A stretch of 42,863 nucleotides of DNA from a virus. The position numbers and the translations under genes were made by a program. How positions within the stretch are numbered: position 1 is the stretch's first letter; every line of letters starts with the position of its first letter. Of the stretch, positions 722 to 42,813 are shown piece by piece. The notes below the pieces were generated by a model. That model worked only from the letters and a program-made list of their open reading frames with translations. It had not been told where the DNA came from and made no database searches. The stretch lies in UHGV virus genome UHGV-0096616, one strand, 5' to 3'.

Positions 722-1240
722 GTGATGAAATTTAAAAAATGTCTTCTGCCTGTGGCAATGTTAGCGTCATTCACTCTGGCAGGATGCCAGTCAAATGCTG
801 ATGATCATGCCGCCGATGTTTATCAAACCGATCAACTGAATACCAAACAAGAAACTAAAACCGTTAATATTATTTCCATTCTTCCCGCAAAAGTTGCCGT
901 AGACAACTCCCAAAATAAACGGAACGCACAAGCCTTCGGCGCGCTTATTGGTGCAGTCGCTGGCGGTGTAATCGGCCACAACGTGGGGTCTGGCAGCAAT
1001 TCCGGAACGACGGCAGGTGCAGTTGGCGGCGGAGCTGTTGGCGCGGCAGCGGGTTCTATGGTGAATGATAAAACCTTAGTGGAAGGTGTTTCTCTAACGT
1101 ATAAGGAAGGCACCAAAGTGTATACCTCCACCCAGGTGGGTAAAGAGTGCCAGTTTACGACAGGTTTAGCCGTTGTTATTACCACGACGTATAACGAAAC
1201 GCGTATTCAGCCAAATACGAAATGTCCTGAAAAGAGCTAA
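722..1240 (+). CDS. yfgH: outer-membrane lipoprotein YfgH-like (172 aa)
   Basis: Signal peptide ending in lipobox LAGC, Gly/Ala-rich glycine-zipper region; synteny with guaA. Confidence 0.6.
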   Translation: MMKFKKCLLPVAMLASFTLAGCQSNADDHAADVYQTDQLNTKQETKTVNIISILPAKVAVDNSQNKRNAQAFGALIGAVAGGVIGHNVGSGSNSGTTAGAVGGGAVGAAAGSMVNDKTLVEGVSLTYKEGTKVYTSTQVGKECQFTTGLAVVITTTYNETRIQPNTKCPEKS

Positions 1241-1255
1241 TGATCAGGAGGAGTC

Positions 1256-1795
1256 ATGAAGAAAGTTTTTCTTTGCGCCATCTTAGCCTCCTTAAGCTAT
1301 CCGGCTATCGCCTCATCATTGCAGGATCAACTCTCGGCTGTCGCAGAAGCGGAACAGCAAGGTAAAAATGAAGAGCAAAGGCAGCATGACGAATGGGTCG
1401 CGGAGCGCAACAGGGAAATCCAGCAAGAGAAGCAACGTCGCGCAAACGCCCAGGCCGCGGCTAATAAAAGAGCGGCAACGGCAGCGGCGAATAAGAAAGC
1501 TCGTCAGGATAAACTGGACGCCGAAGCCACTGCGGACAAAAAACGCGATCAAAGTTATGAAGATGAGCTACGCAGCTTAGAGATTCAGAAACAAAAACTG
1601 GCGCTGGCGAAAGAAGAAGCCCGCGTCAAGCGCGAAAACGAATTTATCGATCAGGAACTGAAGCACAAAGCTGCGCAAACCGATGTGGTGCAATCTGAAG
1701 CTGACGCAAACAGAAATATGACTGAAGGCGGTCGCGATCTGATGAAAAGCGTGGGCAAAGCAGAAGAGAACAAATCGGACAGCTGGTTTAACTAA
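1256..1795 (+). CDS. yfgI: YfgI-like secreted coiled-coil protein (179 aa)
   Basis: N-terminal signal peptide, charged K/E/Q/A-rich body; RBS AGGAGG upstream; synteny. Confidence 0.6.
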   Translation: MKKVFLCAILASLSYPAIASSLQDQLSAVAEAEQQGKNEEQRQHDEWVAERNREIQQEKQRRANAQAAANKRAATAAANKKARQDKLDAEATADKKRDQSYEDELRSLEIQKQKLALAKEEARVKRENEFIDQELKHKAAQTDVVQSEADANRNMTEGGRDLMKSVGKAEENKSDSWFN

Positions 1796-2013: not shown

Positions 2014-2496
2014 CTATCTTGTCAGGGTGTCATACTGTTTTTCGCAGACTCTTCCGGCTTCGACTGCCCGGTCAGCATACTCTGCCAGTTGTCTGTTTCT
2101 CTCGAGAGATTTGCTGAGCACGTCGGCAAGCAAAACTCCGGTGTCTGCGGCTGACGACCCAGCGCCGACAATGGCGTTATAGTGCCTGAGCTGCTCACGG
2201 ATGGCAACGAGCTGTTGCTGCAACCGGCCAGCGCGAGCGGCAGCATCAAGAGCATCATTGCGCGCCTGGTCGATCCTCTGCTGCGCTTCACGTTCATTGA
2301 TCGATTTCTCCTGTTCGTAGTGCTGACGAACTCTCTCATCTTCGGTTTTGCGGTCTTCTTTCGCCTGTGCATACCCGGCGTCGTACTGACGACTGCCGTG
2401 TGCATTCCAGGCTACAACTCCTGATATGACCAGAACAGCAAACATCGCCATGATAACCAACTGTTTCCAGTATGCTTTTGCGAATGCCCAGATCAT
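2014..2496 (-). CDS. Rz-like i-spanin (160 aa; N-terminal TM helix, coiled-coil periplasmic domain)
   Basis: Immediately downstream of endolysin with ATGA start/stop overlap; TM plus coiled coil; contains an embedded lipoprotein ORF. Confidence 0.7.
2022..2258 (-). CDS. Rz1-like o-spanin lipoprotein embedded in the +1 frame of Rz
   Basis: ORF fully inside Rz in another frame; signal peptide [13 protein letters not shown] with lipobox; start could also be the upstream Met (to 2297). Confidence 0.55.
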   Translation of the reverse strand: MMLLMLPLALAGCSNSSLPSVSSSGTITPLSALGRQPQTPEFCLPTCSANLSRETDNWQSMLTGQSKPEESAKNSMTP

Positions 2497-3122
2497 GCCG
2501 CCAGCACCTTACTTGCAGTGATGTATCGCGCGCGCCGGTCATCAATGCCGTTCCGGCCACCATTGATAAGCAGAGTTACACGTGCAATATCTCCGGTATA
2601 CTTCATGCAGCCTTTGCTGGAGAAGAACCACGCCGCGCTACGAGCCGCGTATTCGTCCTGCGCCAGCAGTTCAGGACTCTCCAGCAGGTAAACCTTAAGA
2701 CCGTTTCCACAGTCACGATAGTTATTCAAACCGGTAATCTGGATAAGTCCGCGCCCACGGTAGTTCCAGCCATCGCCAGGAGCATTGTTACCCATGCGTT
2801 TGCTGTACACCAGATTTGCGATCGCACGCTGGCGCTCGAGTGGTAATGGCGGTTCACCAGCACGGCGACCCAGTGCGTTGGCTTGTCCCTGAGTGAGACG
2901 ACCAGCACGAACGAAGTTAGCCAGTCCGGTGACGCTGTAGTTGAAATTTTCCTGCAACCGGGTGAAGCCTCCAGACTCATGCCCGACCTGAGCAATAAAC
3001 ATTGCCTGATCTTCTGGTTTACTGATACCAAACTCTTTCATCGCAGAAGTTATATGCGAGAACCAGCGTGCGGCCAGCGCCTCGCTAATACCAGCAGCTC
3101 GCTGGAATTGTTTAATCTCCAT
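2493..3122 (-). CDS. Endolysin, glycoside hydrolase family 19 (chitinase-like) type
   Basis: Motifs VGHESGGF and [15 protein letters not shown]; start placed at internal ATG (MEIKQF) with GAGG RBS, not the longer track ORF. Confidence 0.85.
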
Positions 3123-3420
3123 GTTTAGACCTCGATACTTTGAAAATTTGAACGACGTTACCGCGCGTTTTAATAACCGCAGCGAGCATGACAGCGTTGA
3201 TAATGACCTCAGATAAATCCACAGCCATTGGCGTACGAAACCAGATTGCATAGGAGACACGAACCGGAATACTGGCCGCAGCAACAATCAGGAAATAAGC
3301 AAGCCACCCACCCCATCTTCGGTGTTGGGATCCGTTACGCCGGAATGTAACAACGCGAATTGCAATGCCAGTACAAATAACTGCATTGGTGATAAGCAAA
3401 AAAAGCTCATTAGTTACCAT
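3112..3420 (-). CDS. small membrane protein, holin/antiholin candidate (102 aa)
   Basis: 2-3 predicted TM helices; between the upstream holin-like gene and endolysin, overlapping both. Confidence 0.45.
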
Positions 3421-3811
3421 CGCCTTTTCTCCCAGGAATTAATTCGCGTGGATTGTCGGAACGGTGATAGAGCCATATACCAATGCGCACAGCGACAATT
3501 GCTGACACAAATGCGCCAGCAGAGAAAACAATCCCTTTTTCAAAAGAGTCCTGCGTGATAGTAGGGATCAGGCTGGCTATGCCGATAAGAATTGATGCTG
3601 CTGGTTTATAAAAAAGAAGGCCGCAGAGAAAGCTAAGCATCGACAAGAGTACACGACGACGAATGGGATACTCTACCGCAGAGGTAACAAAAATTACCGC
3701 TCCAGCCAAAGCCCCCAAAGCAACCTCAGGAGGAACTCCTGCTATCACCGCCGCCAGAGAACTCATGCTAAGCCACTGATTTAAAGTTTCACTGGTTAGT
3801 TGAGCTGACAT
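3410..3811 (-). CDS. putative holin (about 133 aa, multi-TM)
   Basis: Hydrophobic helices, charged C-terminus; first gene of the lysis cassette; start moved to ATG at 3811 with GGTGGA RBS. Confidence 0.5.
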   Translation of the reverse strand: MSAQLTSETLNQWLSMSSLAAVIAGVPPEVALGALAGAVIFVTSAVEYPIRRRVLLSMLSFLCGLLFYKPAASILIGIASLIPTITQDSFEKGIVFSAGAFVSAIVAVRIGIWLYHRSDNPRELIPGRKGDGN

Positions 3812-3956
3812 GTTTTCCACCGTTTATATGCATTACAACCTCCTAAATGGTAAGTCACAAAGCATAATAAACCATTTATGGTTTATTGTTACTTTCTTAC
3901 AGCAAAAATACTGTCATTGGTATTGGTAAAAGCCCACCCAAGGTGGTGATTTAGGG

Positions 3957-4069: not shown

Positions 4070-6646
4070 CTATTTTAACACCCATCCTGTATTTCCTGTT
4101 CCTGTTTTCTTTTGATACCAATCACCATTATAATCAATGTACATTGACCCCTGAGGTGCGGTCACAACACCCTCAGGTGAACCGGAGCCTCTATAAATTC
4201 CAAAGAGAGTTGTACCTCTTACTTTCTCGTATGCAAACAACAAACCATCTGAAGCCCTTCTGATACGCAACGGTTCGTGCTCTGAGTCCGATGCAAATGT
4301 AGTGGTTCCGTTTGAATCTGTTTCCCTGGAAAAACTTCCATCTGTTCTTGTTCCTTCAATGATCGAATTTGGGTAGTTTGGATCATCAGATGAATGTAAC
4401 CTAATATAGGAACTATTTGATGCTGATACCCCCCTACCCCTTAAAATCAATCCCTTAAATGATGACGTAAATAGTGCCTGGATTGAGCCATAAACAGTGT
4501 TATCACTACCGTTTTGCTGATCGTATATTCTTAATCTTGAGCTATTATCATACATAATAGCTTTGAAGTACTCACCAAGACGTTCGCTAAATGCAACAAT
4601 ATTAAAAGCATTGCGCCATCTAAATGATATATTTCGCCCGCTTTCTCCGGCATCTGCACCTGCATTACTTGAAGCATTGGTTATGCCAGAATTAAGGTTC
4701 TGCTCATCGTTGTTACCAGTCGCTGGTCGTATAGAGTAAATTGTCTTTTTCTCAAGAGAATAGCTACTTCCCCATCCATAATCTATTTCAGGACTCCAGT
4801 CTCCAGAATTTGCATCCTTGGTTGTTTCTACCCAATAAGAGCCATTTGATGGAGGGACACCAATTATTCCAGAAGTCTCAATGGATGATGCAGCCCATCT
4901 TCTTCCACGCCAGTTTACAATATTAGCTCCTGCCCTCCATGTTTCTATGCAGCTTATAATTATTTCTTCACCACGAATAGTTAGACCTTCCGGCTCAAAT
5001 CTGGCTGGATTCCCAAGAGTTGGATGGTTAAGCAACCCATCGCGCCCATATTGCGACCTTGCATCATCGATATCTAATTTTCTTAGTAAATTACCTGTTA
5101 AATCATATGTAAAGATATGATGCTTTCCAAAAGCATTAGCCCCCCCCTTAAGTATATGTATATATCTTCCATCAGACGCAATACCTTGTACAGAGTAAGC
5201 GCCTTCAGAAGGTGAGTCGCTCATTTCCCAAACAAACATGGGGTTTGCTAATGTTTTATCTTCAAGTTTATCAATTGATATTTTATCGTATATAAATACA
5301 GTTCGTTTAGCGGCATCACTCTTTGGTGTATTAACCATTATTAAAAGACGACCGTCAGAAGAAATGGCAATTCCTGCACGATTGTAATCTTGAAATGGGT
5401 GACCGCTACCAGTAATCCCCCATACATTATAACTTTTTACGTCAGACTGAGTTGTTCCTGCCCCTCGCCAAGTTATTTTACTAAACCCTTTGCCTGCAGA
5501 CTCCCCATCTTCACCTGAATTGGTTACACTTGATGTATATAAATATACTTGACCATTCTCCACCATGGCAGAAATATCAAATCCGTGCCCAAGGTTTAAT
5601 TCTGGAGAATACGCAACATGGTTTACTACCCTTCCATCATCATAAAGATTAAACTCAACAATACGAACTCTTTCTTTATCTGACCAGGTTGGCCCAACAG
5701 GCCGTTGTGTGACAAATAGTTTTTCAATGCCATTAACACGGCAATATGCGATCCCCTGTAACGCATTTCTGGCATTAGGATAAATTTCTGTGTTTGTTTC
5801 TCCCTGAAAACCAAAAAAAGGTTCCATCATTTTTCTCTGCACAAGTTTGTCAGTTTCAAGTAGACGAGAAACTGAAATAAGAGATCCATTATCAGCAACA
5901 ATCCTCCCAATACCTTGAACAGAAGATACATCAACTTCGAGAGTATTTACTGCAAAATCGCCATTAGGAACAAACGCTCTGTGGCCTGCATTAGAGAACG
6001 CCTCCGTAGAATCAGTTATTCCATCTCCCTTTGCACCAAAATCGCTAACACTGACGATATCTCTCATCTTATCCTGGAACGTTCGGTATACTGCTCCAGA
6101 ACCATACTGAATAAACCAACCAAAACCACCAACAACCCCGGCGATTGCAGCATCGACATAATTACGCATTGAGCGATTATTTACAGCATCCTGCTCAAGT
6201 GATGGATCTGCAAGGTTAGAAATTCTGTTTTGCTTTGCATCGTAATATTTTGCAAGCAGAGAGGGCTTCATCAATGCACGTCTGAACCACCCAAAACATT
6301 GCTGGATCAGCATCGTCAGATAGTCAAAGGCATCCTCATGCACTTCGGGGAAAAACTTTCCCTGATTGCGAAGGTCTGTCTCCTGCACCACATCAAGCAC
6401 ACGATCTATCGTAATTCGCCAGCCAGCAGCAAGCGGCGACGGAAGAACCACAGAACCGCCACTATAAGTGCCCGCCCCAGTTACCGTATAACCGGTATCC
6501 AGAACCAATTCTGTTACGTTCCCGTTCAGGTCAGACACCTGAACAACCAGGTCGGATTTTTTGAAAATACGGAAGGTATACGGAAATGATGTCGTAACGC
6601 CGTTACCTGTGTATTCGTTGTGGTCAACTTCGGTTGAGACCGTCAT
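4070..6646 (-). CDS. Tail spike / tail fiber (858 aa): T7 gp17-like N-terminal adaptor domain plus beta-helix-like receptor-binding/depolymerase body
   Basis: N-terminal ~120 aa resemble podovirus tail-fiber adaptor domains; DFGAKGDGITD motif typical of tailspike beta-helices; visibly AT-rich; GGAG RBS. Confidence 0.75.
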   Translation of the reverse strand: MTVSTEVDHNEYTGNGVTTSFPYTFRIFKKSDLVVQVSDLNGNVTELVLDTGYTVTGAGTYSGGSVVLPSPLAAGWRITIDRVLDVVQETDLRNQGKFFPEVHEDAFDYLTMLIQQCFGWFRRALMKPSLLAKYYDAKQNRISNLADPSLEQDAVNNRSMRNYVDAAIAGVVGGFGWFIQYGSGAVYRTFQDKMRDIVSVSDFGAKGDGITDSTEAFSNAGHRAFVPNGDFAVNTLEVDVSSVQGIGRIVADNGSLISVSRLLETDKLVQRKMMEPFFGFQGETNTEIYPNARNALQGIAYCRVNGIEKLFVTQRPVGPTWSDKERVRIVEFNLYDDGRVVNHVAYSPELNLGHGFDISAMVENGQVYLYTSSVTNSGEDGESAGKGFSKITWRGAGTTQSDVKSYNVWGITGSGHPFQDYNRAGIAISSDGRLLIMVNTPKSDAAKRTVFIYDKISIDKLEDKTLANPMFVWEMSDSPSEGAYSVQGIASDGRYIHILKGGANAFGKHHIFTYDLTGNLLRKLDIDDARSQYGRDGLLNHPTLGNPARFEPEGLTIRGEEIIISCIETWRAGANIVNWRGRRWAASSIETSGIIGVPPSNGSYWVETTKDANSGDWSPEIDYGWGSSYSLEKKTIYSIRPATGNNDEQNLNSGITNASSNAGADAGESGRNISFRWRNAFNIVAFSERLGEYFKAIMYDNSSRLRIYDQQNGSDNTVYGSIQALFTSSFKGLILRGRGVSASNSSYIRLHSSDDPNYPNSIIEGTRTDGSFSRETDSNGTTTFASDSEHEPLRIRRASDGLLFAYEKVRGTTLFGIYRGSGSPEGVVTAPQGSMYIDYNGDWYQKKTGTGNTGWVLK

Positions 6647-7414: not shown

Positions 7415-8110
7415 ATGACAGCTACAAAAAGCACGTCCATTTTTTCTTTCGAATCCCAAGCCGATATACGAGTAATCGTCATTAATGGTGAGCCATGGTT
7501 TATCGCTTCAGATGTTTGTCGGGCTATAGGCATAGCAAACCATCGAGATGCTGTTCGAAAACTTGATGATGATGAGAAGGGCGTCGCTTCAACCGACACC
7601 CCTGGCGGTGAGCAAGAATCGATCATCATCTCCGAGTCAGGCCTCTACACACTGATCCTCCGCTGCCGCGACGCAGTGACACCAGGCACTATCCCATACC
7701 GCTTTCGTAAATGGGTTACAGGTGAGGTTCTTCCTCAGATCCGCCGCACCGGAAGTTACATTAAAAACTCGCTCCCGCAGGAAGAGCGCATAAAGATGGT
7801 TGCCGACCAGGTAGCCAACGCCACAGCATCAGCAGTGATGCAGGCGATGAAGATAGAGAACAAAACCTACAGTGCCCCACTGAAGCCCGGCTACCGCAGC
7901 CTGATTCATTCGCCGTCTGGTGTTCTCGGCCTGACGGAGAACTCACTGCTGATGAATCTGCTGAACCAGTTACAGGACGACGGGCACGACGTATCGGGCG
8001 CGGCGGCGGAGCTGACCACCATGTTCTGCTACATCGTCGGTGTGAGCAAATGCCTGCGTGATATCCAGACACACGCGGAGTACATCAACGACAAGGCTGG
8101 GTTCTTCTGA
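7415..8110 (+). CDS. Bro-N domain protein (231 aa), putative antirepressor
   Basis: N-terminal Bro-N-like domain; C-terminal domain homologous to the 6842-7099 product; RBS AAGG. Confidence 0.65.
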   Translation: MTATKSTSIFSFESQADIRVIVINGEPWFIASDVCRAIGIANHRDAVRKLDDDEKGVASTDTPGGEQESIIISESGLYTLILRCRDAVTPGTIPYRFRKWVTGEVLPQIRRTGSYIKNSLPQEERIKMVADQVANATASAVMQAMKIENKTYSAPLKPGYRSLIHSPSGVLGLTENSLLMNLLNQLQDDGHDVSGAAAELTTMFCYIVGVSKCLRDIQTHAEYINDKAGFF

Positions 8111-8396: not shown

Positions 8397-8837
8397 TTGA
8401 AGTTTAACATTAGAATATCTAATAGTTTTCTAAATGGGGAAAGCAACACCCATTTCGCTGTAGACGGACCTTTCCTTACTGACGATGAAATAAAAATCAT
8501 ACAAAGGTTTTTAGAAGATGTTGCCAATGGAAGGGCGCTTGTTGGAAAAAACAAGCCATCGTGGGTTGATGATAACCATGATAAAATTCCCGGCTCAGAC
8601 AATTATGAGCAAGAGAATTATTGGCATTATCATTGTGGGCCAACATGGTATCCAAACACATTTAAGAATTATACCATTAACTTAAATTTCAACCCTGGCG
8701 GAATGCATTCTAATGAATGCATTCATTATGCAAAAAATGATAATGAAATTGTCGTTGTTGGATTTTCAAGAGAACACATACCTTTCCTTTCATCAGATGG
8801 AAACGACAATCCGCTTTTTTATGATGAAGAAGAATAG
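8397..8837 (+). CDS. AT-rich accessory (moron) protein, 146 aa, acidic C-terminus, unknown function
   Basis: TTG start with AGGAG RBS; visibly much lower GC than neighbours; followed by intrinsic terminator; no family recognised. Confidence 0.5.
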   Translation: MKFNIRISNSFLNGESNTHFAVDGPFLTDDEIKIIQRFLEDVANGRALVGKNKPSWVDDNHDKIPGSDNYEQENYWHYHCGPTWYPNTFKNYTINLNFNPGGMHSNECIHYAKNDNEIVVVGFSREHIPFLSSDGNDNPLFYDEEE

Positions 8838-8859
8838 CCCGCGGCGCGGGCTTTTTTGT
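8838..8859 (+). terminator. intrinsic terminator (GCCCG-cggcg-CGGGC then TTTTTT)
   Basis: GC hairpin plus T-run immediately after the 8837 stop. Confidence 0.65.
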
Positions 8860-8892: not shown

Positions 8893-8921
8893 TCGTTAAA
8901 AACAAGGCCGCGAAAGCGGCC
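8893..8921 (-). terminator. intrinsic terminator on the - strand (GGCCGC-tttc-GCGGCC then TTGTTTTT)
   Basis: Hairpin plus U-tract downstream of the 8931 stop. Confidence 0.5.
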
Positions 8922-8930
8922 TGTGACATG

Positions 8931-9227
8931 TCACGTTCCTTTTCTGAATGATAGCCGTTCGAAAAATGATGACATTCCACCGCAGACAATAGCAAAGATG
9001 ATCCCACCAAAGAAGAGAAGGCCAGCCTGCCACCACTCCCACCGCCATACATCCACAGCACCAACCATACCAACAATCGCTCCAACAAATGGAATATAGC
9101 TCACGATGAAAGCAATGGGGGCTGCAATTATCCAGTGCAATCCCCACCATGATTCAAGCCCAGCCATAATTGCTGCCAACTGAAAAAGACCAACGACGAT
9201 ATAAACAATGAATCCTATCGCTTGCAT
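8931..9227 (-). CDS. small Trp-rich integral membrane protein (98 aa, ~3 TM helices)
   Basis: AGGTGA RBS; hydrophobic helices; lies between the structural operon and the moron island. Confidence 0.5.
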   Translation of the reverse strand: MQAIGFIVYIVVGLFQLAAIMAGLESWWGLHWIIAAPIAFIVSYIPFVGAIVGMVGAVDVWRWEWWQAGLLFFGGIIFAIVCGGMSSFFERLSFRKGT

Positions 9228-9239
9228 GTAGTCACCTAT

Positions 9240-9413
9240 TTACCCAGTAAAAATCAGAGGCCTCCCCTCAATAAGGCTTGCAACAAGAACTATTCCCTGC
9301 ACAACAAAGATGAACCAGCAAATAGCTTGAGTCTGAGGGTTAAGAAAATATTTGTAGCGGTCAATAAATAACAACCCACCAGAAATTATCACACTCAAAA
9401 TAATTAAAAACAC
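9240..9413 (-). CDS. small membrane protein (about 57 aa, GTG start), not in the ORF track
   Basis: Own translation; AAGGA RBS upstream of GTG; hydrophobic; ends 12 nt before the 9227 start. Confidence 0.3.
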   Translation of the reverse strand: MFLIILSVIISGGLLFIDRYKYFLNPQTQAICWFIFVVQGIVLVASLIEGRPLIFTG

Positions 9414-9422
9414 AACACTTCC

Positions 9423-11897
9423 TTATTGCGGAGTGACATCCTGAGGTCGCCACCAGTATGTCTGATTAAACTCTTTCTTCGAACGTTGCTCCATTTTACG
9501 CAAATAGCCTGGTGAAAAATACTCCTGCATCTGGTTAAAGATCATATGATCGAGAGCCGCCTTTAAGTACCAGAGATTCGCACCTGGCATCAAACCTTTC
9601 CCCAGCTTCACCAGATCACCACCAGTCTGCTCACTCTTCCCTTCCACAGCATTTAACGGTATGCCCTGAGCAATCTTCACTACGTCATCAACCAGACCAG
9701 CTACCGGGCCAAGCATCGACGCCAGCGCGCCGCTTCCGTACCTAGTGTGATCTGACAATAAAAAGTCACCGTAAAGGCCAAGACCACCACCTTTCAGTAG
9801 AGCACCAAGCCAAAATTTAGCAGCATCTTCTCCTGTCATCTCGCGAGGATTACGACCAGACGCAAGGTCGTTAAGTTGCTGCGACAAAGCGCCAAGAATG
9901 GTCGTACTGGCAATAAACGTCGCAATATATGCCGCACGCCCACCAGCAGACGGCATACCCATAGCGCGTGACCAGTGACGCATAACCACCGAGATAGGGA
10001 ACGATTTAAACAGGAAAACACTTCTCGTTAATTCACCTTTCCATGTTCCACGCTGAATACCAGAACCGGTTATCAGTTGCTCACGTGCTCCCGGTGTAAT
10101 AACAGCCATATCAACTTCTTCAGTTACGGCACCGAGCAGTTTACGCATTGCCTCAAATTTCACGCGTTCAGGCTCACCAAGATGTTTAACTGCTGAATCA
10201 GGGATACGCATAATGCTTTCCGGTGTCAGCATCGTATTATTACCGTTCCCCCAGTCCTCCTGTTGCGCCAGCTTCCATACGCTCCAGTCTGTGTCAGTAA
10301 TCCCTTTACTTTTCAGGATACGAAAATCAGAGTCATCGAGGCTACGAAGGTCTGGTGTCCGTGACACTACTTCTCCCAGGCTTCCCATCATGGTTACGCC
10401 ATAGGCGCGCTTGTGCGCATCTGACCATGCTGTAAGCCCACTGGCACGCATTACCGCCGTTGCCGCCCAACGAGACACAGACGGCCCCATATTATCCATC
10501 GCCCAGCGGTTAACGCTGCCAAGTAGAGATTCCATCGCCAGGCCAGCGCGGCGCGCCCGCGCAAGCTCAGTACGGTTCGTTGGGTCCATAGCTTCAAGCT
10601 GGTTGCGAAATAACTGGTTCATTGGAAGGTTGGTAACCTTCGCAGACAGATACATGGTTCCAAGATCAGAGAACGATGACAGCAACGCGGATCCGAGTCT
10701 GCTGGCAACCAGCCAGTTGCGGATATTGTCAGACCATCGCGCGATGTGCGGATTCGCTACAGGCTGTGTTTTTCCGGAAATAAAGTTGTACAAGTTCTCT
10801 GTTTTGTTCGCCAGACGCTCGACGCTACCGGTTTTACTCGGGTTAGCTGTTGCCGTTTCTGCCTTAACCTGATCAAGAAGGGAGCGGAAAACATGTTCGG
10901 GGTTTGGACCATATGTTTCCACCAGAGCAATATCTTTACTGATACCTTCCAGGTGACCGACCATGATTTCCCATAGAGAGCGATCACCATAAAGTTGTTG
11001 ATATTGGAGATAGGAATCTGCATCTTTGAAATGTATCTGTCGTGATGCATTACCACGGTTAGCACGTGCGCCGGAAATTCGCATTCCGGTATCAGTAAGC
11101 TTATTCAGCCCACCAGTAGCGATCGTGTTATAAGCCTCTCCAAGAAATTCAGACAACTCGGCATCGTTCATCAGTTGTCCATCGGCTCGGGTATAATATT
11201 TGCGATCCAGCTTACCTATAACATCGCTAACCCACTTATCCTTTGATACCGCCCCAACCTTTTCCATAGAATGATGTTGAGGGATCCCCCAGTTTTCGAG
11301 ATAGCCAATGTCACCACCAGCATCATTAAACCGGCGGCGCAGTAGCTCTGTCACTTCTCTCCACGCCTTAGCACCTTTTCTTGCTTTAGCATTGCCAGTA
11401 TTTTGCCCTCGCATTTCATATACCAGATCACGCACGCCCGCTTCATCTTCAAACAGGCCAAAAAAGCGAGGATCAACTGCTTCAAATGCCTCCTGCAATT
11501 GACTCAATGCATAATCACGGGTGGCTTTTGTTCTGGATTCAACAGAGAGGAAATTAGATTTACCGTCTGCATTAAAAGCTATAGTACGGTTAAGAGCGCC
11601 AAGTTTCCCATCAGCCCCTTGATAGCTATTGATAAATTTATCCAATCTCTGACGCGCGGCTATAGTGAGAGCCACACGACGTTTCTTTAATGCCGCTTCT
11701 CGCTGTAATTCTTCAGATGCCAATTGTGCTGCTCGATATAGCCGCTCTGATTCGGAAAGTTGTCGCCACGACATCGGGTCATCACGAGCAATGGAGCGCA
11801 TATTTCGATAAATGCGGTCTTCAATGTTCTGTATTTCTCGCGCCGTTAACGTGCGCTGCGCCGCCTGCTGGACCGCTTGTATACATTCCTGTCTCAT
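9423..11897 (-). CDS. internal virion / ejection (core) protein, 824 aa
   Basis: Large ORF at the end of the structural operon in the position of podovirus internal core proteins; no catalytic motif recognised. Confidence 0.55.
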   Translation of the reverse strand: MRQECIQAVQQAAQRTLTAREIQNIEDRIYRNMRSIARDDPMSWRQLSESERLYRAAQLASEELQREAALKKRRVALTIAARQRLDKFINSYQGADGKLGALNRTIAFNADGKSNFLSVESRTKATRDYALSQLQEAFEAVDPRFFGLFEDEAGVRDLVYEMRGQNTGNAKARKGAKAWREVTELLRRRFNDAGGDIGYLENWGIPQHHSMEKVGAVSKDKWVSDVIGKLDRKYYTRADGQLMNDAELSEFLGEAYNTIATGGLNKLTDTGMRISGARANRGNASRQIHFKDADSYLQYQQLYGDRSLWEIMVGHLEGISKDIALVETYGPNPEHVFRSLLDQVKAETATANPSKTGSVERLANKTENLYNFISGKTQPVANPHIARWSDNIRNWLVASRLGSALLSSFSDLGTMYLSAKVTNLPMNQLFRNQLEAMDPTNRTELARARRAGLAMESLLGSVNRWAMDNMGPSVSRWAATAVMRASGLTAWSDAHKRAYGVTMMGSLGEVVSRTPDLRSLDDSDFRILKSKGITDTDWSVWKLAQQEDWGNGNNTMLTPESIMRIPDSAVKHLGEPERVKFEAMRKLLGAVTEEVDMAVITPGAREQLITGSGIQRGTWKGELTRSVFLFKSFPISVVMRHWSRAMGMPSAGGRAAYIATFIASTTILGALSQQLNDLASGRNPREMTGEDAAKFWLGALLKGGGLGLYGDFLLSDHTRYGSGALASMLGPVAGLVDDVVKIAQGIPLNAVEGKSEQTGGDLVKLGKGLMPGANLWYLKAALDHMIFNQMQEYFSPGYLRKMEQRSKKEFNQTYWWRPQDVTPQ

Positions 11898-11902
11898 TTA
11901 AT

Positions 11903-23205: not shown

Positions 23206-23498
23206 TCCTGTTCACTGGCCTCTTTGGCCATCTTCAAATACTGTTCAGGGCAATGCGCCATAACGCGCTGAAACAGTTCCAGCGCCAGATTGCGTTGCCC
23301 CTCATTAAATGCCATTGCCATAGCGTCCATCGGTGAGATAGCGGAAAACACACGGCCTTTCTCCAGCACCGACCAGACAACGCGACGCCCCTGTTCACTG
23401 CTCATGACAAAGCGAATGTCATCAATTTCACGCTGTGCCATGTCACGTTGCTTACGGGCGTTTTCTTCTTTCAGTTGATCATCTTCGTAATCTGTCAT
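23202..23498 (-). CDS. small hypothetical head-morphogenesis protein (98 aa)
   Basis: Translationally coupled between portal and scaffold. Confidence 0.4.
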   Translation of the reverse strand: MTDYEDDQLKEENARKQRDMAQREIDDIRFVMSSEQGRRVVWSVLEKGRVFSAISPMDAMAMAFNEGQRNLALELFQRVMAHCPEQYLKMAKEASEQE

Positions 23499-29074: not shown

Positions 29075-29123
29075 AGTATTCAAAACCCGTCAAATTCATC
29101 ATGCATAATCTACTCGTGACATG

Positions 29124-29471
29124 TCACACTATTAATTTCGTTTCATGCCAGCCTTTAGTCACCCAGCATTGCGAGTCACCATTACACGGGCATGAATTAA
29201 CTGGAACTCTCTCGCCGCACTTACCGCAACGTTTTCTGCTGATCGATTTTATACGCCCGCGCACACGTGCATCATCCTGGCGGATCAGCAGCGCGATGTA
29301 CTCGGCCATTTCATAGGGATCGCGACCAGGGCGCCGGGCGGCGCAGTTCCGCGCTAGCATTTCCTGCTCCTGCTTATCCAGCACCAGTTCAATTTTGCGC
29401 TCACCGGCGGCGGACTGCCGAGCGCGCTGCGCGGCTTTGCGTTCTGCGGGGGATTTAGCCACGAATCGCAC
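29124..29471 (-). CDS. hypothetical basic protein with C-terminal Cys-rich zinc-ribbon-like motif (115 aa); possible late-gene regulator
   Basis: Motif CGKCG...CPC; last gene before the late-operon control region. Confidence 0.4.
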   Translation of the reverse strand: MRFVAKSPAERKAAQRARQSAAGERKIELVLDKQEQEMLARNCAARRPGRDPYEMAEYIALLIRQDDARVRGRIKSISRKRCGKCGERVPVNSCPCNGDSQCWVTKGWHETKLIV

Positions 29472-39792: not shown

Positions 39793-41043
39793 TTATTCCC
39801 CCGCCATCCACTTCTCAAACTTCGACGGGGAGAACGGAATCAGATCCGTATGCTCCCCGTTAATCCAGGAATCAATCATATCGGACCACTGCTGCAACAT
39901 GTAGGCGCGCTGTCTGGCGTATTCCGCTTTGTTATATACGGCGCGCACACCTTTCTGCTCATGTGCCAGAGCCTTTTCAATCCAGTCTGAAGGATAACCA
40001 GCCTCATGCAACAACGTACTGGCTGTACGGCGCATATCGTGTACGGTGAAGTCCTGAATATGCTCACCATCTTCATTTATTATTTTCACCGTTCTGTCGA
40101 TCAGAGAGTTCAGCGCGGCATTAGATAATGGCTTCCTGAAATTGTAACGACCAGGAACCAGATATTCACTTCCACCAGCGCACATCTGCAACCCGACCAA
40201 TATATCCTGAGCCTGTTTAGGCAGGTAAATAACATGCGCCCGGCTTCCCTTCATGCGGTCTGAAGGAATTGTCCATGTCCATTTTTTAAAATCTATTTCA
40301 TCCCACGTTGCATTGGTGAATTCGCCTTTACGAACCATAGTGATAAGCACCAGCTTTAAAGCCATTTTCATAGTGCCCATAGCACCAATGGCATCCAGCG
40401 TGCGGAAGAACAGACCAATTTCTTCTGGTGTCAGTGTTCGCTCTCGTGGTTTAAATATGGCGATAGACGAAGGTTTAATGTCAGCAGCAGGATTAAACAA
40501 ACCATGACCACGGTCATTGGCGTGACGGTATACGCTGCTGATGATCTCCCTGGCCTGTACTGCTGTTGCCCGACCACCGCGTTCGACAATCCGGTCACAC
40601 AAATCACGAACCATCGATGTGGTAATTTCAGCCATCATTTTGTTGCCAAGAACCGGAAGTATGTCACGGTCGATCACCGCCTGCTTCATTGCGCGGGTAC
40701 TTTCAGCCAGGATGACGTGTTTCATATAACTGTCGGTATGTACCGCAAACGTCTCGGCACCACGAATCTTTTTGATACCGTCACGTTTAGCCGCAGCCGG
40801 CGACTGGCCTGCTTTAAGCAGCTTCTTTGCAGCAATCAGTTCTTCTCGCGCTTCTGCCAGGCTGATACCGTCACGCCCATACTGCCCGATTACCAGTGTT
40901 TCGCGGCGACCGTTGATACGGTAGTCATAGCGAAACGAGACCGTACCTGACGTAAGCACAGCTACATACAGCCCGTCACGATCGGAAACTTTGTACAGTT
41001 TGTCCTGTGGCTTGAGGTTTTTTAATTTTGTATCGGTAAGCAC
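39793..41043 (-). CDS. int: tyrosine integrase, P4-like family (416 aa)
   Basis: N-terminal Arm-type domain, C-terminal catalytic domain with conserved R...H..R...Y region; adjacent to attR. Confidence 0.9.
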   Translation of the reverse strand: MLTDTKLKNLKPQDKLYKVSDRDGLYVAVLTSGTVSFRYDYRINGRRETLVIGQYGRDGISLAEAREELIAAKKLLKAGQSPAAAKRDGIKKIRGAETFAVHTDSYMKHVILAESTRAMKQAVIDRDILPVLGNKMMAEITTSMVRDLCDRIVERGGRATAVQAREIISSVYRHANDRGHGLFNPAADIKPSSIAIFKPRERTLTPEEIGLFFRTLDAIGAMGTMKMALKLVLITMVRKGEFTNATWDEIDFKKWTWTIPSDRMKGSRAHVIYLPKQAQDILVGLQMCAGGSEYLVPGRYNFRKPLSNAALNSLIDRTVKIINEDGEHIQDFTVHDMRRTASTLLHEAGYPSDWIEKALAHEQKGVRAVYNKAEYARQRAYMLQQWSDMIDSWINGEHTDLIPFSPSKFEKWMAGE

Positions 41044-41084
41044 AATTCACCCGTATAGAAACCATTTTCATGACGGTATGAGAG

Positions 41085-41101
41085 TATACCTTTAAGGTAA
41101 T
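41085..41101. promoter_or_regulatory. palindrome TATACCTTTAAGGTAAT (site 13, one mismatch) upstream of int
   Basis: Dyad 42 bp upstream of the integrase start. Confidence 0.4.
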
Positions 41102-41159
41102 ACCGTCACCTGTACCGCCGAAAAATATGGTGTAGAGTGAATAGAAATGAATACGTAAA

Positions 41160-41192
41160 AACAAAAACCCTCTGCAAAAACAGAGGGTTGAG
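41160..41192 (-). terminator. intrinsic terminator downstream of guaA, encoded on the phage side of attR (CCCTCTG-ttttt-CAGAGGG then TTTTTGTTTTT)
   Basis: Hairpin plus U-run on the - strand; near-duplicate of the hairpin at 1832-1866. Confidence 0.6.
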
Positions 41193-41233
41193 TTGGCATC
41201 TGAATAGGAATGATTTGCTATGAGTTAGCTGTT

Positions 41234-41250
41234 AATCATTCCCACTCAAT
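41234..41250 (+). repeat. attR core, AATCATTCCCACTCAAT, overlapping the last 5 codons of guaA
   Basis: Exact 17-bp copy of 1887-1903; contains the guaA stop codon. Confidence 0.7.
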
Positions 41251-42813
41251 GGTAGCTGGCGGCTTGCCGCTGATGTCATACACCACGCGGGAAATACCGT
41301 TCACTTCATTGATAATACGGTTGGAAACGCGGCCGAGGAAGTCGTACGGCAGATGTGCCCAGTGTGCGGTCATAAAGTCGATGGTTTCGACAGCACGCAG
41401 AGAGACAACCCAGTCATACTTACGACCATCGCCCATTACGCCAACGGAACGTACTGGCAGGAAGACGGTGAACGCCTGGCTGACTTTGTCGTACAGATCC
41501 GCTTTACGCAGTTCTTCAATGAAGATGGCGTCAGCACGGCGCAGCAGGTCACAATACTCTTTCTTCACTTCTCCCAGAACACGAACGCCAAGGCCTGGTC
41601 CCGGGAACGGGTGACGGTACAACATGTCATACGGTAGGCCCAGCTCCAGACCAATCTTACGCACTTCGTCTTTGAACAGCTCTTTCAGCGGTTCAACCAG
41701 GCCCATCTTCATCTCTTTCGGCAGGCCACCCACGTTGTGGTGAGATTTGATGACGTGTGCTTTACCGGTTGCAGAAGCAGCAGATTCGATAACGTCAGGG
41801 TAGATGGTGCCCTGCGCCAGCCACTTCACGTCTTCCAGTTTCAGCGCTTCTTCATCGAATACTTCAACGAAAACGCGACCGATAATTTTACGTTTTGCTT
41901 CCGGATCGTTTTCGCCAGCCAGCGCTGACAAGAAGCGATCTTCTGCCGGTACGTGAACAATGTTCAGACCAAAGTGATCGCCAAACATATCCAGAACCTG
42001 CTCTGCTTCGTTGAGACGCAGCAGGCCGTTGTCGACGAATACGCAAGTCAGGTTTTTACCGATAGCGCGGTGCAACAGCATTGCGGTAACGGAGGAATCC
42101 ACGCCACCAGAGAGGCCGAGGATGACTTTATCGTCGCCCACTTGCTCGCGGATGCGGGCTACAGCGTCGTCGATAATTTTCGCTGGCGTCCACAGGGCTT
42201 CACACTGGCAGATATCACGCACAAAACGCTCCAGCATGCGCATACCCTGGCGGGTGTGAGTCACTTCCGGGTGGAACTGTACGCCATAGAAGCGTTTTTC
42301 TTCGTTGGCCATGATGGCAAACGGGCAGCTTTCGGTGCTGGCTACGGTGACGAAGTCGGACGGGATAGCGGTAACTTTATCGCCGTGGCTCATCCAGACG
42401 TCCAGCAGCGGTTTACCATCTGCGGTCAGCGCATCTTCGATACCGCGAACCAGTGCGCTGTCGTTTACGACTTCAACCTGCGCGTAGCCAAATTCACGTT
42501 CGTTAGAGGCTTCAACGTGACCGCCCAACTGCATTGCCATGGTCTGCATGCCATAGCAAACGCCGAATACCGGTACGCCTGCTTCAAAGACATACTGCGG
42601 CGCACGCGGGCTGTTTTCTTCGGTGGTGCTTTCCGGGCCGCCGGAAAGAATAATGCCGCTTGGATTGAAGTCACGAATTTGTGCTTCTGTCACATCCCAC
42701 GCCCACAGTTCGCAGTAAACACCCAGCTCACGCACGCGGCGCGCAACCAGTTGAGTGTACTGAGAACCGAAGTCCAGAATGAGGATGCGATGCTTATGAA
42801 TGTTTTCCGTCAT
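41236..42813 (-). CDS. guaA: GMP synthase (glutamine-hydrolysing), 525 aa
   Basis: Full-length ORF with glutamine amidotransferase N-domain and ATP-pyrophosphatase SGGVDSSV motif; matches E. coli GuaA as recalled. Confidence 0.95.

What the first reader, a model, noticed from the sequence alone, without database searches (positions are those of the whole stretch)
8931..9413. Pair of small membrane proteins between the structural operon and the moron island
Two short translationally linked ORFs (57 aa with GTG start, not in the ORF track; 98 aa Trp-rich with 3 TM helices) follow the last internal virion protein and end at a terminator. Small membrane proteins near tail spike genes in serotype-converting podoviruses can be O-antigen polymerase inhibitors or exclusion factors. 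This is a speculative role.
Basis: inference. Interest (0 to 1): 0.4.

Follow-up and report, generated by a model that had tools for sequence, protein, structure and literature searches.

The report
Swappable small membrane-protein genes after ejection gene
Two real genes for small inner-membrane proteins sit in a swappable accessory slot at the end of the virion operon of an epsilon15-like E. coli prophage; their function is unknown, and blocking DNA entry by rival phages is the best guess rather than changing the O-antigen.

Summary
On the minus strand, orfA (9413..9240, 57 aa, GTG start, 2 TM) and orfB (9227..8931, 98 aa, 7 Trp, 3 TM) follow the last internal-virion-protein gene (9423..11897, a T7 gp16/IVP-D homologue) and end at a terminator (8922..8905). 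Both are under purifying selection (dN/dS 0.15-0.28 and 0.03-0.19).

The window is a Uetakevirus (epsilon15/phiV10-like) prophage inserted beside guaA. Neither protein matches a characterised family. They show no significant similarity to holins (one sub-threshold hit), P22 SieA or the epsilon15 alpha-polymerase inhibitor. The window carries no wzy, oac or gtr gene.

The main finding is the slot itself. Among 79 prophages with a 96-100% identical ejection-protein C-terminus, 41 carry orfA+orfB, 30 carry a 46-aa 2-TM protein, and 8 carry a small TM ORF plus a lipoprotein. More distant relatives add further combinations. All are bounded by a conserved palindrome (GTGACATGTCAC) plus the terminator.

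orfB stays directly downstream of IVP-D genes that are only 24-26% identical. Its family (745 cluster representatives) also occurs outside phages.

Best reading: accessory envelope cassette, probably superinfection exclusion at DNA entry (about 0.35). The O-antigen reading is unsupported.

The parts
9423..11897 (-). Context: 824-aa last internal virion/ejection protein gene, homologous to epsilon15 gp17 and T7 IVP-D (gp16). The cassette begins at its stop codon.
   Evidence: ORF. phrog_684 'virion structural protein', E=0. epsilon15 gp17 assigned as IVP-D homologue in PMC4819975.
9418..9424 (-). Shine-Dalgarno AAGGAAG for orfA, overlapping the TAA stop of the upstream gene.
   Evidence: Read directly from the sequence.
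9240..9413 (-). orfA: 57 aa, GTG start, predicted 2-TM hairpin with a conserved loop DRYKYFL. GC is 37%, against 49% for the window.
   Evidence: dN/dS 0.15-0.28 and start codon GTG/TTG/ATG in homologues. No Pfam, NCBIfam or PADLOC match.
9232..9237 (-). Shine-Dalgarno AGGTGA for orfB, inside the 12-nt spacer between orfA and orfB.
   Evidence: Read directly from the sequence.
8931..9227 (-). orfB: 98 aa, 7 Trp, 3 TM. Predicted topology is N-terminus out and C-terminus in, with the Trp-rich loop DVWRWEWWQ on the periplasmic side. Conserved motif: Y-x-P-x2-G-x3-G-x2-GA-x3-W-x-W-x-W-x-QA.
   Evidence: phrog_3075, E=5e-54, unknown function. 52 homologues. Alignment A1. AlphaFold pLDDT 89. 745 cluster representatives. 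dN/dS 0.03-0.19.
8923..8934 (.). Perfect palindrome GTGACATGTCAC overlapping the orfB stop codon. It is the conserved right-hand boundary of every cassette variant examined in the close relatives.
   Evidence: 3 sites in the window at up to 1 mismatch, 0.16 expected by chance. Exact copy found in 82 of 108 fetched loci, at the cassette end in every case I inspected, including epsilon15, phiV10 and a Cronobacter prophage.
8895..8922 (-). Rho-independent terminator of the late operon and cassette: stem-loop AGGCCGCTTTCGCGGCCT followed by TGTTTTTAAC.
   Evidence: The same element is annotated as a terminator in phiV10 and epsilon15.

Best explanation
orfA and orfB are two real genes for small inner-membrane proteins. 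They form one variant of an exchangeable accessory cassette at the very 3' end of the late (virion/ejectosome) operon of a Uetakevirus prophage.

Shown:
- They are transcribed with the ejection-protein genes. No separate promoter was found, and orfA starts 9 nt after the IVP-D stop codon.
- They are not part of the lysis cassette.
- They are dispensable for the virion, because phages with an identical IVP-D C-terminus carry other cassettes.
- The slot always holds small envelope proteins.

Inferred:
- The products sit in the inner membrane of the cell that carries or is producing the phage.
- They interfere with the step at which an incoming related podovirus assembles its IVP-D/gp16-type channel across the inner membrane. 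This would be superinfection exclusion at DNA entry, functionally like P22 SieA, T4 Imm or HK97 gp15.
- orfB would present its conserved Trp-rich loop at the periplasmic face of the membrane.
- orfA is an independent 2-TM module that combines with different second genes in other prophages.
For: (1) Cassette polymorphism. Among 79 IMG/VR prophages with a 96-100% identical IVP-D C-terminus, 41 carry orfA+orfB, 30 carry a 46-aa 2-TM protein (PhiV10p21 type), and 8 carry a small TM ORF plus a 125-aa lipoprotein.

(2) More distant relatives add further combinations: orfA + 93-aa 2-TM + orfB; orfA + epsilon15-gp18-like 64-aa 2-TM; orfA + lipoprotein; orfA + 92-aa 2-TM.

(3) Cassette type assorts independently of the downstream flank. 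The cassette is always bounded by the IVP-D stop codon and the palindrome plus terminator.

(4) orfB homologues at 53-59% identity still lie directly after IVP-D genes that are only 24-26% identical, in Cronobacter, Kosakonia and a second Salmonella podovirus lineage.

(5) The position matches that of P22 sieA, between the last ejection-protein gene and the antirepressor/tailspike region. SieA is a 3-TM inner-membrane protein that blocks injection, and escape mutations map to ejection proteins gp16 and gp20 (PMC10883804).

(6) Both genes are under purifying selection, and orfA has a low GC content (37%) typical of acquired accessory genes.

(7) The canonical lysis cassette (two holin-family genes, a GH19 endolysin and Rz) lies elsewhere, at 2014..3820.
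Against: - No functional data exist for any member of either family.
- No sigma-70-like promoter was found upstream of the cassette on the coding strand, anywhere in 9380..11900. Expression from the repressed prophage, which classic exclusion requires, is therefore unproven. P22 sieA by contrast is on the opposite strand with its own promoter.
- There is no sequence or fold similarity to SieA or to any known exclusion or defence protein.
- The orfB family also occurs outside prophages (Microvirga, Desulfovibrio, Buttiauxella) and is fused to the DUF805 or RDD membrane domains. That points to a more general membrane activity.
- Tight linkage to the IVP-D gene across deep divergence could equally reflect a role in the phage's own infection cycle.
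Confidence: 0.35

Rival explanations
1. General membrane-physiology factor. orfB (and perhaps orfA) belongs to a widespread bacterial small-membrane-domain family that alters an envelope property such as stress tolerance, ion or lipid homeostasis, or partner-protein stability. The prophage carries it as a host-fitness moron unrelated to phage entry.
For: There are 745 cluster representatives at E<=1e-3. Homologues lie in non-phage neighbourhoods: next to aconitase/TctC/GntR and MutS in Microvirga, and next to umuC and a sulfatase in Buttiauxella. The domain is fused to the DUF805 and RDD membrane domains and occurs as four tandem copies in one protein. The phiv142-3 prophage as a whole is reported to improve serum survival of its host (PMC7724020).
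Against: In Enterobacterales the gene keeps its place directly after the IVP-D gene across lineages whose IVP-D is only 24-26% identical. No own promoter was found. The published phiv142-3 work implicates orf6 and orf10, not orf12, which is orfB.
Confidence: 0.2
2. Late-phase lysis modulators. These would be holin-like, antiholin-like or lysis-timing membrane proteins made with the virion proteins.
For: They are small and 2-3 TM, and orfB has the N-out/C-in topology with a basic C-tail typical of class I holins. They are co-transcribed late. Pfam gives a weak Phage_holin_5_2 hit at E=0.027.
Against: The holin hit is below the cut-off (15 bits against 29) and is seen in only 4 of 28 family members. 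A complete lysis cassette with two holin-family genes, endolysin and Rz lies 5 kb away. Closely related phages lack orfB entirely. The family occurs in non-phage contexts and as fusions.
Confidence: 0.15
3. Factor for the phage's own ejection proteins. For example, a membrane chaperone, an immunity factor against the membrane-inserting IVP-D in the producer cell, or a minor ejectosome component.
For: orfA translation starts 9 nt after the IVP-D stop codon. epsilon15 gp18 overlaps the gp17 stop. A small 2-TM ORF is almost always the first gene after IVP-D. orfB is linked to IVP-D across deep divergence.
Against: Phages with an identical IVP-D C-terminal 300 aa carry three unrelated cassettes, one of them a lipoprotein. 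That is hard to reconcile with a specific structural or chaperone partner. The proteins are extremely hydrophobic. From my own recollection, not verified here, epsilon15 gp18 is not among the reported virion proteins.
Confidence: 0.1
4. O-antigen polymerase (Wzy) inhibitor or other serotype-conversion factor.
For: Known inhibitors (epsilon15 gp21; D3 Iap, cited from my own knowledge) are small hydrophobic membrane peptides. The phage genus contains serotype converters.
Against: orfB has no similarity to epsilon15 gp21 (orfA was not compared). In epsilon15 the inhibitor and Wzy genes lie after the tailspike gene, not in this slot, which there holds the unrelated gp18. The window contains no wzy, oac or gtrABC. 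orfB homologues occur in Alpha- and Deltaproteobacteria away from any O-antigen genes.
Confidence: 0.04

Closest known systems
P22 SieA (superinfection exclusion A; PMC10883804)
   Same: It is a predicted 3-TM inner-membrane protein encoded between the last ejection-protein gene and the antirepressor/tailspike region of a temperate podovirus. It is present in only some relatives and exists as several types that are barely similar to one another.
   Different: There is no sequence similarity (BLASTP E=19), and orfB lacks the FxRYPxEAxxFNK motif. SieA is 162-164 aa, against 98 aa for orfB. sieA is on the opposite strand with its own promoter, whereas orfA/orfB are co-oriented with the late operon and no promoter was found. 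SieA is a single gene, not a pair.
epsilon15 gp18 and phiV10 PhiV10p21 (uncharacterised small 2-TM proteins)
   Same: They occupy exactly the same slot in the same genus: after gp17/IVP-D and before the same palindrome plus terminator. They are also small 2-TM proteins, like orfA.
   Different: They belong to different sequence families: phrog_29212 and phrog_7892, against phrog_3075 for orfB and only a weak phrog_17645 hit (E=0.064) for orfA. PhiV10p21 is only 24% identical to orfA in a forced alignment. These phages carry one gene in the slot rather than two.
T4 Imm and HK97 gp15 (inner-membrane blockers of DNA entry; cited from my own knowledge)
   Same: They are small phage-encoded inner-membrane proteins. 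HK97 gp15 is embedded in the virion-gene region as a moron.
   Different: No homology was tested or is known. T4 imm is an early gene, and HK97 gp15 has its own promoter and is expressed from the prophage.
epsilon15 gp21 alpha-polymerase inhibitor
   Same: It is a small 2-TM membrane peptide in the same phage genus.
   Different: There is no similarity to orfB. It lies at a different locus, next to the phage wzy gene after the tailspike gene. This window has no wzy partner.
Class I holins (for example lambda S)
   Same: They are about 100 aa with 3 TM, an N-out/C-in topology and a basic C-terminus.
   Different: Only a sub-threshold, inconsistent Pfam hit was found. orfB is not next to an endolysin gene. 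The phage already has two holin-family genes. orfB has no dual-start motif. The family also occurs outside phages.

Membership tests
PHROG 3075 (phage protein family, unknown function) | Full-length match to the family profile | tested here: met
   orfB residues 1-98 match profile positions 1-98, E=5.4e-54.
P22 SieA family | Sequence similarity to SieA, including the conserved cytoplasmic motif FxRYPxEAxxFNK | tested here: not met
   BLASTP E=19. The motif is absent from the orfA and orfB sequences (motif taken).
P22 SieA family | Gene located between the last ejection-protein gene and the tailspike gene of a temperate podovirus prophage | tested here: met
   orfA/orfB lie between the IVP-D gene (9423..11897) and the tailspike gene (4070..6646).
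P22 SieA family | Own promoter and expression from the repressed prophage | tested here: not met
   No sigma-70-like site was found on the coding strand in 9380..11900, and the genes share the strand of the late operon. P22 sieA is antisense with PsieA. A consensus scan cannot exclude a weak promoter.
P22 SieA family | Blocks DNA injection by related phages | not testable with these tools
   This needs plating, K+ efflux or DNA-entry assays.
O-antigen polymerase inhibitors (epsilon15 gp21 type) | Similarity to a known inhibitor | tested here: not met
   hhalign of the orfB family profile against epsilon15 gp21 gives probability 0.5%. orfA was not compared.
O-antigen polymerase inhibitors (epsilon15 gp21 type) | Linked phage-encoded replacement polymerase (wzy) or other O-antigen-modifying genes | tested here: not met
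   tblastn of epsilon15 gp22/gp21, phiV10 Oac and P22 GtrABC against the window gave no significant hit.
Holins | Match to a holin family above the curated threshold | tested here: not met
   Phage_holin_5_2 scores 15.1 bits against a cut-off of 29.2, and only 4 of 28 family members hit it at E>=0.027.
Holins | Location in the lysis cassette next to the endolysin and spanin genes | tested here: not met
   The lysis cassette lies at 2014..3820: Phage_holin_8, Phage_holin_3_7, a GH19 endolysin and DUF2514 Rz.
Morons (accessory genes inserted in late operons) | Presence/absence polymorphism between otherwise near-identical phages | tested here: met
   Three cassette types occur behind a 96-100% identical IVP-D C-terminus, and they assort independently of the downstream flank.
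Morons (accessory genes inserted in late operons) | Own promoter and terminator; deviant base composition | tested here: inconclusive
   A terminator is present. orfA has 37% GC against 49% for the window, while orfB has 46.5%. No promoter was found.

The most novel reading that the evidence does not exclude
The site directly after the IVP-D (T7 gp16-like) gene of epsilon15-like podoviruses is a dedicated diversification locus for anti-ejectosome exclusion proteins. At least eight unrelated small envelope proteins (2-TM, 3-TM, lipoprotein) would be swapped there between phages at a fixed boundary formed by the palindrome GTGACATGTCAC plus the terminator. orfB would represent a large uncharacterised membrane-domain family (745 clusters, not in Pfam) whose Trp-rich periplasmic loop blocks assembly of the incoming inner-membrane channel. 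The palindrome also occurs at the head of the late operon and after terL in relatives. It would be a regulator-binding or recombination site that defines the cassette.
Probability: 0.15. Interest if true: 0.6.

Novelty: new member of a known kind. Interest (0 to 1): 0.33.

Why it matters
If the exclusion reading is right, epsilon15-like phages would have a counterpart of P22 SieA. These phages include O157-specific phiV10 relatives and many E. coli, Salmonella and Klebsiella prophages. Their slot would supply a natural panel of alternative small proteins aimed at the T7-gp16-type DNA-entry channel. That panel could help in dissecting how podovirus ejectosomes cross the inner membrane and in predicting prophage-conferred resistance in phage typing or therapy.

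Independently of function, orfB defines a sizeable, well-conserved membrane-domain family with no Pfam model. Even so, small hypothetical membrane proteins in accessory slots are common in phages, and nothing here contradicts existing ideas.

Tried and rejected
- Family searches. Pfam, NCBIfam, PADLOC and PHROGs gave no characterised family for orfA, orfB or the alternative cassette proteins.
- Holin membership. The sub-threshold holin hit proved inconsistent across the family.
- PDB sequence searches found nothing for orfB, and only one weak, insignificant match (NDUFB4, E=0.024) for orfA.
- Direct comparisons of orfB with P22 SieA and with epsilon15 gp21 were negative.
- Domain fusions of the orfB family were examined for clues. 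They gave only other uncharacterised membrane domains, DUF805 and RDD.
- Promoter scans for independent expression found none on the coding strand, in the window or in two relatives.
- Rfam gave only a sub-threshold Trp_leader hit at 8898..9015(-), 19.5 bits against 41, E=0.66. I attribute it to the run of Trp codons followed by the terminator inside a conserved protein gene, and rejected it as an attenuator.
- The phiv142-3 paper has qRT-PCR on all prophage genes, but neither the text nor the held supplement mentions orf12, which is orfB.
- The epsilon15 genome paper (PMC2698709) is not held, so I could not check its virion proteome for gp18.
- One context look-up (P0022, Dickeya) found no record.

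Full report
**What is there.**
The window is an integrated Uetakevirus (epsilon15/phiV10-like) prophage.
- Its closest phage records are phiv142-3, HEMP4 and related E. coli phages.
- An integrase gene (39793..41043) lies beside the host guaA gene (41236..42813).
- On the minus strand, the 824-aa gene 9423..11897 matches phrog_684 'virion structural protein'. Its epsilon15 counterpart gp17 was identified as the homologue of T7 internal virion protein D (gp16) by Hardies et al. (PMC4819975).
- orfA begins nine bases after that gene's TAA: GTG at 9413, 57 aa, with Shine-Dalgarno AAGGAAG overlapping the stop codon.
- orfB begins twelve bases after the orfA stop: ATG at 9227, 98 aa, with Shine-Dalgarno AGGTGA.
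- The orfB stop codon lies inside a perfect palindrome, GTGACATGTCAC (8923..8934). A GC-rich hairpin with a T-run (8922..8905) follows directly.

**Are they genes?**
Yes, both.
- orfB has 52 database homologues down to 45% identity, all 'hypothetical'. Thirteen columns are invariant, and the motif Y-x-P-x2-G-x3-G-x2-GA-x3-W-x-W-x-W-x-QA is conserved.
- orfA has 13 homologues at 74-98% identity in E. coli, Citrobacter, Klebsiella, Salmonella and Enterobacter, with a conserved loop DRYKYFL.
- Against diverged homologues, dN/dS is 0.03-0.19 for orfB and 0.15-0.28 for orfA. The orfA start codon is GTG, TTG or ATG, always a valid start.
- Among very close relatives, the variable sites in orfB fall 10, 3 and 16 on codon positions 1, 2 and 3. 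orfA shows no such bias at that short distance (5, 6, 4), so its support comes from the more distant comparisons.
- orfA has two hydrophobic segments.
- orfB has three hydrophobic segments, 7 Trp (7.1%) and a basic C-tail.
- The AlphaFold model of orfB is confident (pLDDT 89) and shows helices 2-28, 32-42, 46-59 and 65-97. I read this as three TM with a proline-kinked second one.
- By the positive-inside rule, the C-terminus is cytoplasmic and the Trp-rich loop DVWRWEWWQ is periplasmic. This is an inference.

**What they are not.**
- No Pfam, NCBIfam or PADLOC family matches either protein. orfB belongs to PHROG 3075, which has no known function.
- The single weak holin hit (Phage_holin_5_2, 15 bits against a cut-off of 29) recurs in only 4 of 28 family members.
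- The prophage has a complete lysis cassette elsewhere: Phage_holin_8, Phage_holin_3_7, a GH19 endolysin and Rz at 2014..3820.
- orfB has no similarity to P22 SieA or to the epsilon15 alpha-polymerase inhibitor gp21.
- In epsilon15, the inhibitor and its Wzy polymerase lie after the tailspike gene. The slot studied here is filled in epsilon15 by an unrelated 64-aa 2-TM protein, gp18.
- tblastn with epsilon15 gp21/gp22, phiV10 Oac and P22 GtrABC finds nothing in the window. This prophage is therefore not a recognisable serotype converter, and the O-antigen reading has no support.

**The slot is a cassette site.**
I fetched 80 IMG/VR prophage loci encoding an IVP-D C-terminus 96-100% identical to the window's. 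Of these, 79 could be typed:

| Cassette | Loci |
|---|---|
| orfA + orfB | 41 |
| Single 46-aa 2-TM protein, as in phiV10 (PhiV10p21) | 30 |
| Small TM ORF plus a 125-aa lipoprotein (lipobox LLVGC) | 8 |

More distant prophages that keep orfA combine it with other second genes:
- a 93-aa 2-TM protein plus orfB (Salmonella);
- an epsilon15-gp18-like 64-aa protein (Salmonella);
- the lipoprotein (Citrobacter);
- a 92-aa 2-TM protein with a charged tail (Enterobacter, K. oxytoca).

A Yersinia prophage has a 147-aa secreted-protein gene inserted antisense before its orfB homologue. Every variant examined in these close relatives ends at the same palindrome plus terminator; an exact copy of the palindrome is present in 82 of 108 fetched loci. 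Cassette type assorts independently of the sequence beyond the terminator: orfA+orfB and the PhiV10p21 type each occur with both main flank types. orfA and orfB are thus separable modules within an exchangeable accessory cassette, and neither is needed to build a virion with this IVP-D.

**Linkage and breadth of orfB.**
- In Cronobacter, Kosakonia and a second Salmonella podovirus lineage, the orfB homologue (53-59% identical) lies directly after the IVP-D gene, with no orfA. Those IVP-D proteins are only 24-26% identical to the window's. orfB is therefore persistently associated with the end of the ejection-protein operon.
- An exhaustive profile search finds 745 cluster representatives, 318 of them at E<=1e-10.
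- Members occur in environmental prophage-like islands next to integrase and Bro-N genes.
- They also occur in apparently non-phage neighbourhoods in Microvirga, Desulfovibrio, Mailhella and Buttiauxella.
- Some are fused to the DUF805 or RDD membrane domains, or occur as four tandem copies.
- Among sequenced phage isolates, orfB is found only in seven E. coli and Klebsiella records, all Uetakevirus where a taxonomy was shown.

**Expression.**
No sigma-70-like promoter is detectable on the coding strand anywhere in the IVP-D gene or before the cassette, nor in two relatives. The cassette is therefore the 3' end of the late operon. This differs from P22 sieA, which occupies the analogous position between gene 16 and the antirepressor/tailspike region but is antisense and has its own promoter. 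SieA is a 3-TM inner-membrane protein that blocks injection. Escape mutations map to ejection proteins gp16 and gp20, and sieA is also up-regulated on induction (PMC10883804).

**Interpretation.**
The best-supported statement is that orfA/orfB form an accessory, exchangeable envelope-protein cassette. For mechanism I commit, at about 0.35, to superinfection exclusion at the DNA-entry step. The grounds are:
- the positional analogy to sieA;
- the hypervariability typical of phage-phage conflict loci;
- the presence of a lipoprotein among the alternatives, a common type of exclusion protein (from my own knowledge);
- the persistent linkage of orfB to the inner-membrane channel protein gene.

Rivals:
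- a general membrane-physiology moron (0.2), favoured by the non-phage distribution and the domain fusions;
- a late-phase lysis modulator (0.15);
- a factor for the phage's own ejection proteins (0.1), disfavoured by identical IVP-D sequences carrying unrelated cassettes;
- a Wzy inhibitor (0.04).

All functional steps are inferred. Nothing has been tested experimentally, and the phiv142-3 study that profiled all prophage genes does not mention this gene.

**Verdict.**
The genes are already in databases as hypothetical proteins and belong to the familiar class of small accessory membrane proteins of temperate phages. The added value is the definition of a hypervariable slot behind the IVP-D gene and of a sizeable uncharacterised membrane-domain family. 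Interest is modest, at about 0.33.

Noticed in passing
window 8923..8934 and 29116..29127 (1-mismatch copy at 23435..23446); also L107:5518, L110:2142, L109:2262, L002:6236: The perfect palindrome GTGACATGTCAC occurs at the end of the late operon, overlapping the orfB stop codon. It occurs again at the head of the late operon, overlapping the stop of a 115-aa phrog_536 'transcriptional regulator' gene just upstream of terS and of a terminator-like hairpin. About 0.16 sites are expected by chance. In phiV10 and epsilon15 it also lies just after terL, beside a terminator. It may be a regulator-binding site or a recombination boundary.
   Followed up: partly
window 722..1240 (+) and 1256..1795 (+): A TraT-like / glycine-zipper lipoprotein gene and a DUF5384 gene lie beyond the lysis cassette near the prophage end. 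They are likely surface-exclusion or serum-resistance morons.
   Followed up: no
window 2014..3820 (-): The lysis cassette has two holin-family genes in tandem (Phage_holin_8, 136 aa, and Phage_holin_3_7, 102 aa) ahead of a GH19-type endolysin and a DUF2514 Rz. This suggests a holin/antiholin pair.
   Followed up: no
window 39793..42813: The prophage integrase gene lies directly beside the host guaA (GMP synthase) gene, so the window covers the prophage-chromosome junction.
   Followed up: no
whole window: Unlike epsilon15 (wzy plus inhibitor) and phiV10 (oac), this relative has no detectable O-antigen-modifying gene. The tailspike gene (4070..6646) abuts the lysis cassette.
   Followed up: partly
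L001 (phiv142-3, MN187550) 6088..6571: The GenBank record does not annotate orfA and calls orfB as 118 aa (Orf12). A 1-nt difference in the orfA-orfB spacer opens the frame upstream, so the 98-aa form with the conserved ATG is probably the real one.
   Followed up: partly
L034 and seven other IMG/VR loci; L105:4279..4659: An alternative cassette encodes a roughly 125-aa lipoprotein (phrog_3716, unknown function; lipobox LLVGC). In the IMG/VR loci it follows a small TM ORF that looks frameshifted, as two overlapping frames each carry one TM segment.
   Followed up: partly
L111:4539..4982 (Yersinia kristensenii prophage): A 147-aa protein gene with a signal peptide is inserted antisense between the last ejection-protein gene and the orfB homologue. 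This is the same orientation that sieA has in P22.
   Followed up: no
P0074 (427 aa), P0085/P0091 (DUF805 fusions), P0087 (RDD fusion), P0086/P0122/P0139: The orfB domain occurs as four tandem copies in one protein. It is also fused to DUF805, to RDD, and to a recurrent C-terminal membrane domain with a motif like (Y)GEYSLxKTFWxFG. All of these are uncharacterised.
   Followed up: partly
window 8898..9015 (-): A sub-threshold Rfam Trp_leader match (19.5 bits, E=0.66) covers the Trp-codon-rich end of orfB plus the terminator. I judged it a chance resemblance.
   Followed up: yes
window 8397..8837 (+): A 146-aa ORF with a TTG start (phrog_5954, unknown function, no Pfam match) converges on the cassette. 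It has its own terminator at 8836..8852 and lies downstream of a Bro-N antirepressor gene (7415..8110).
   Followed up: no
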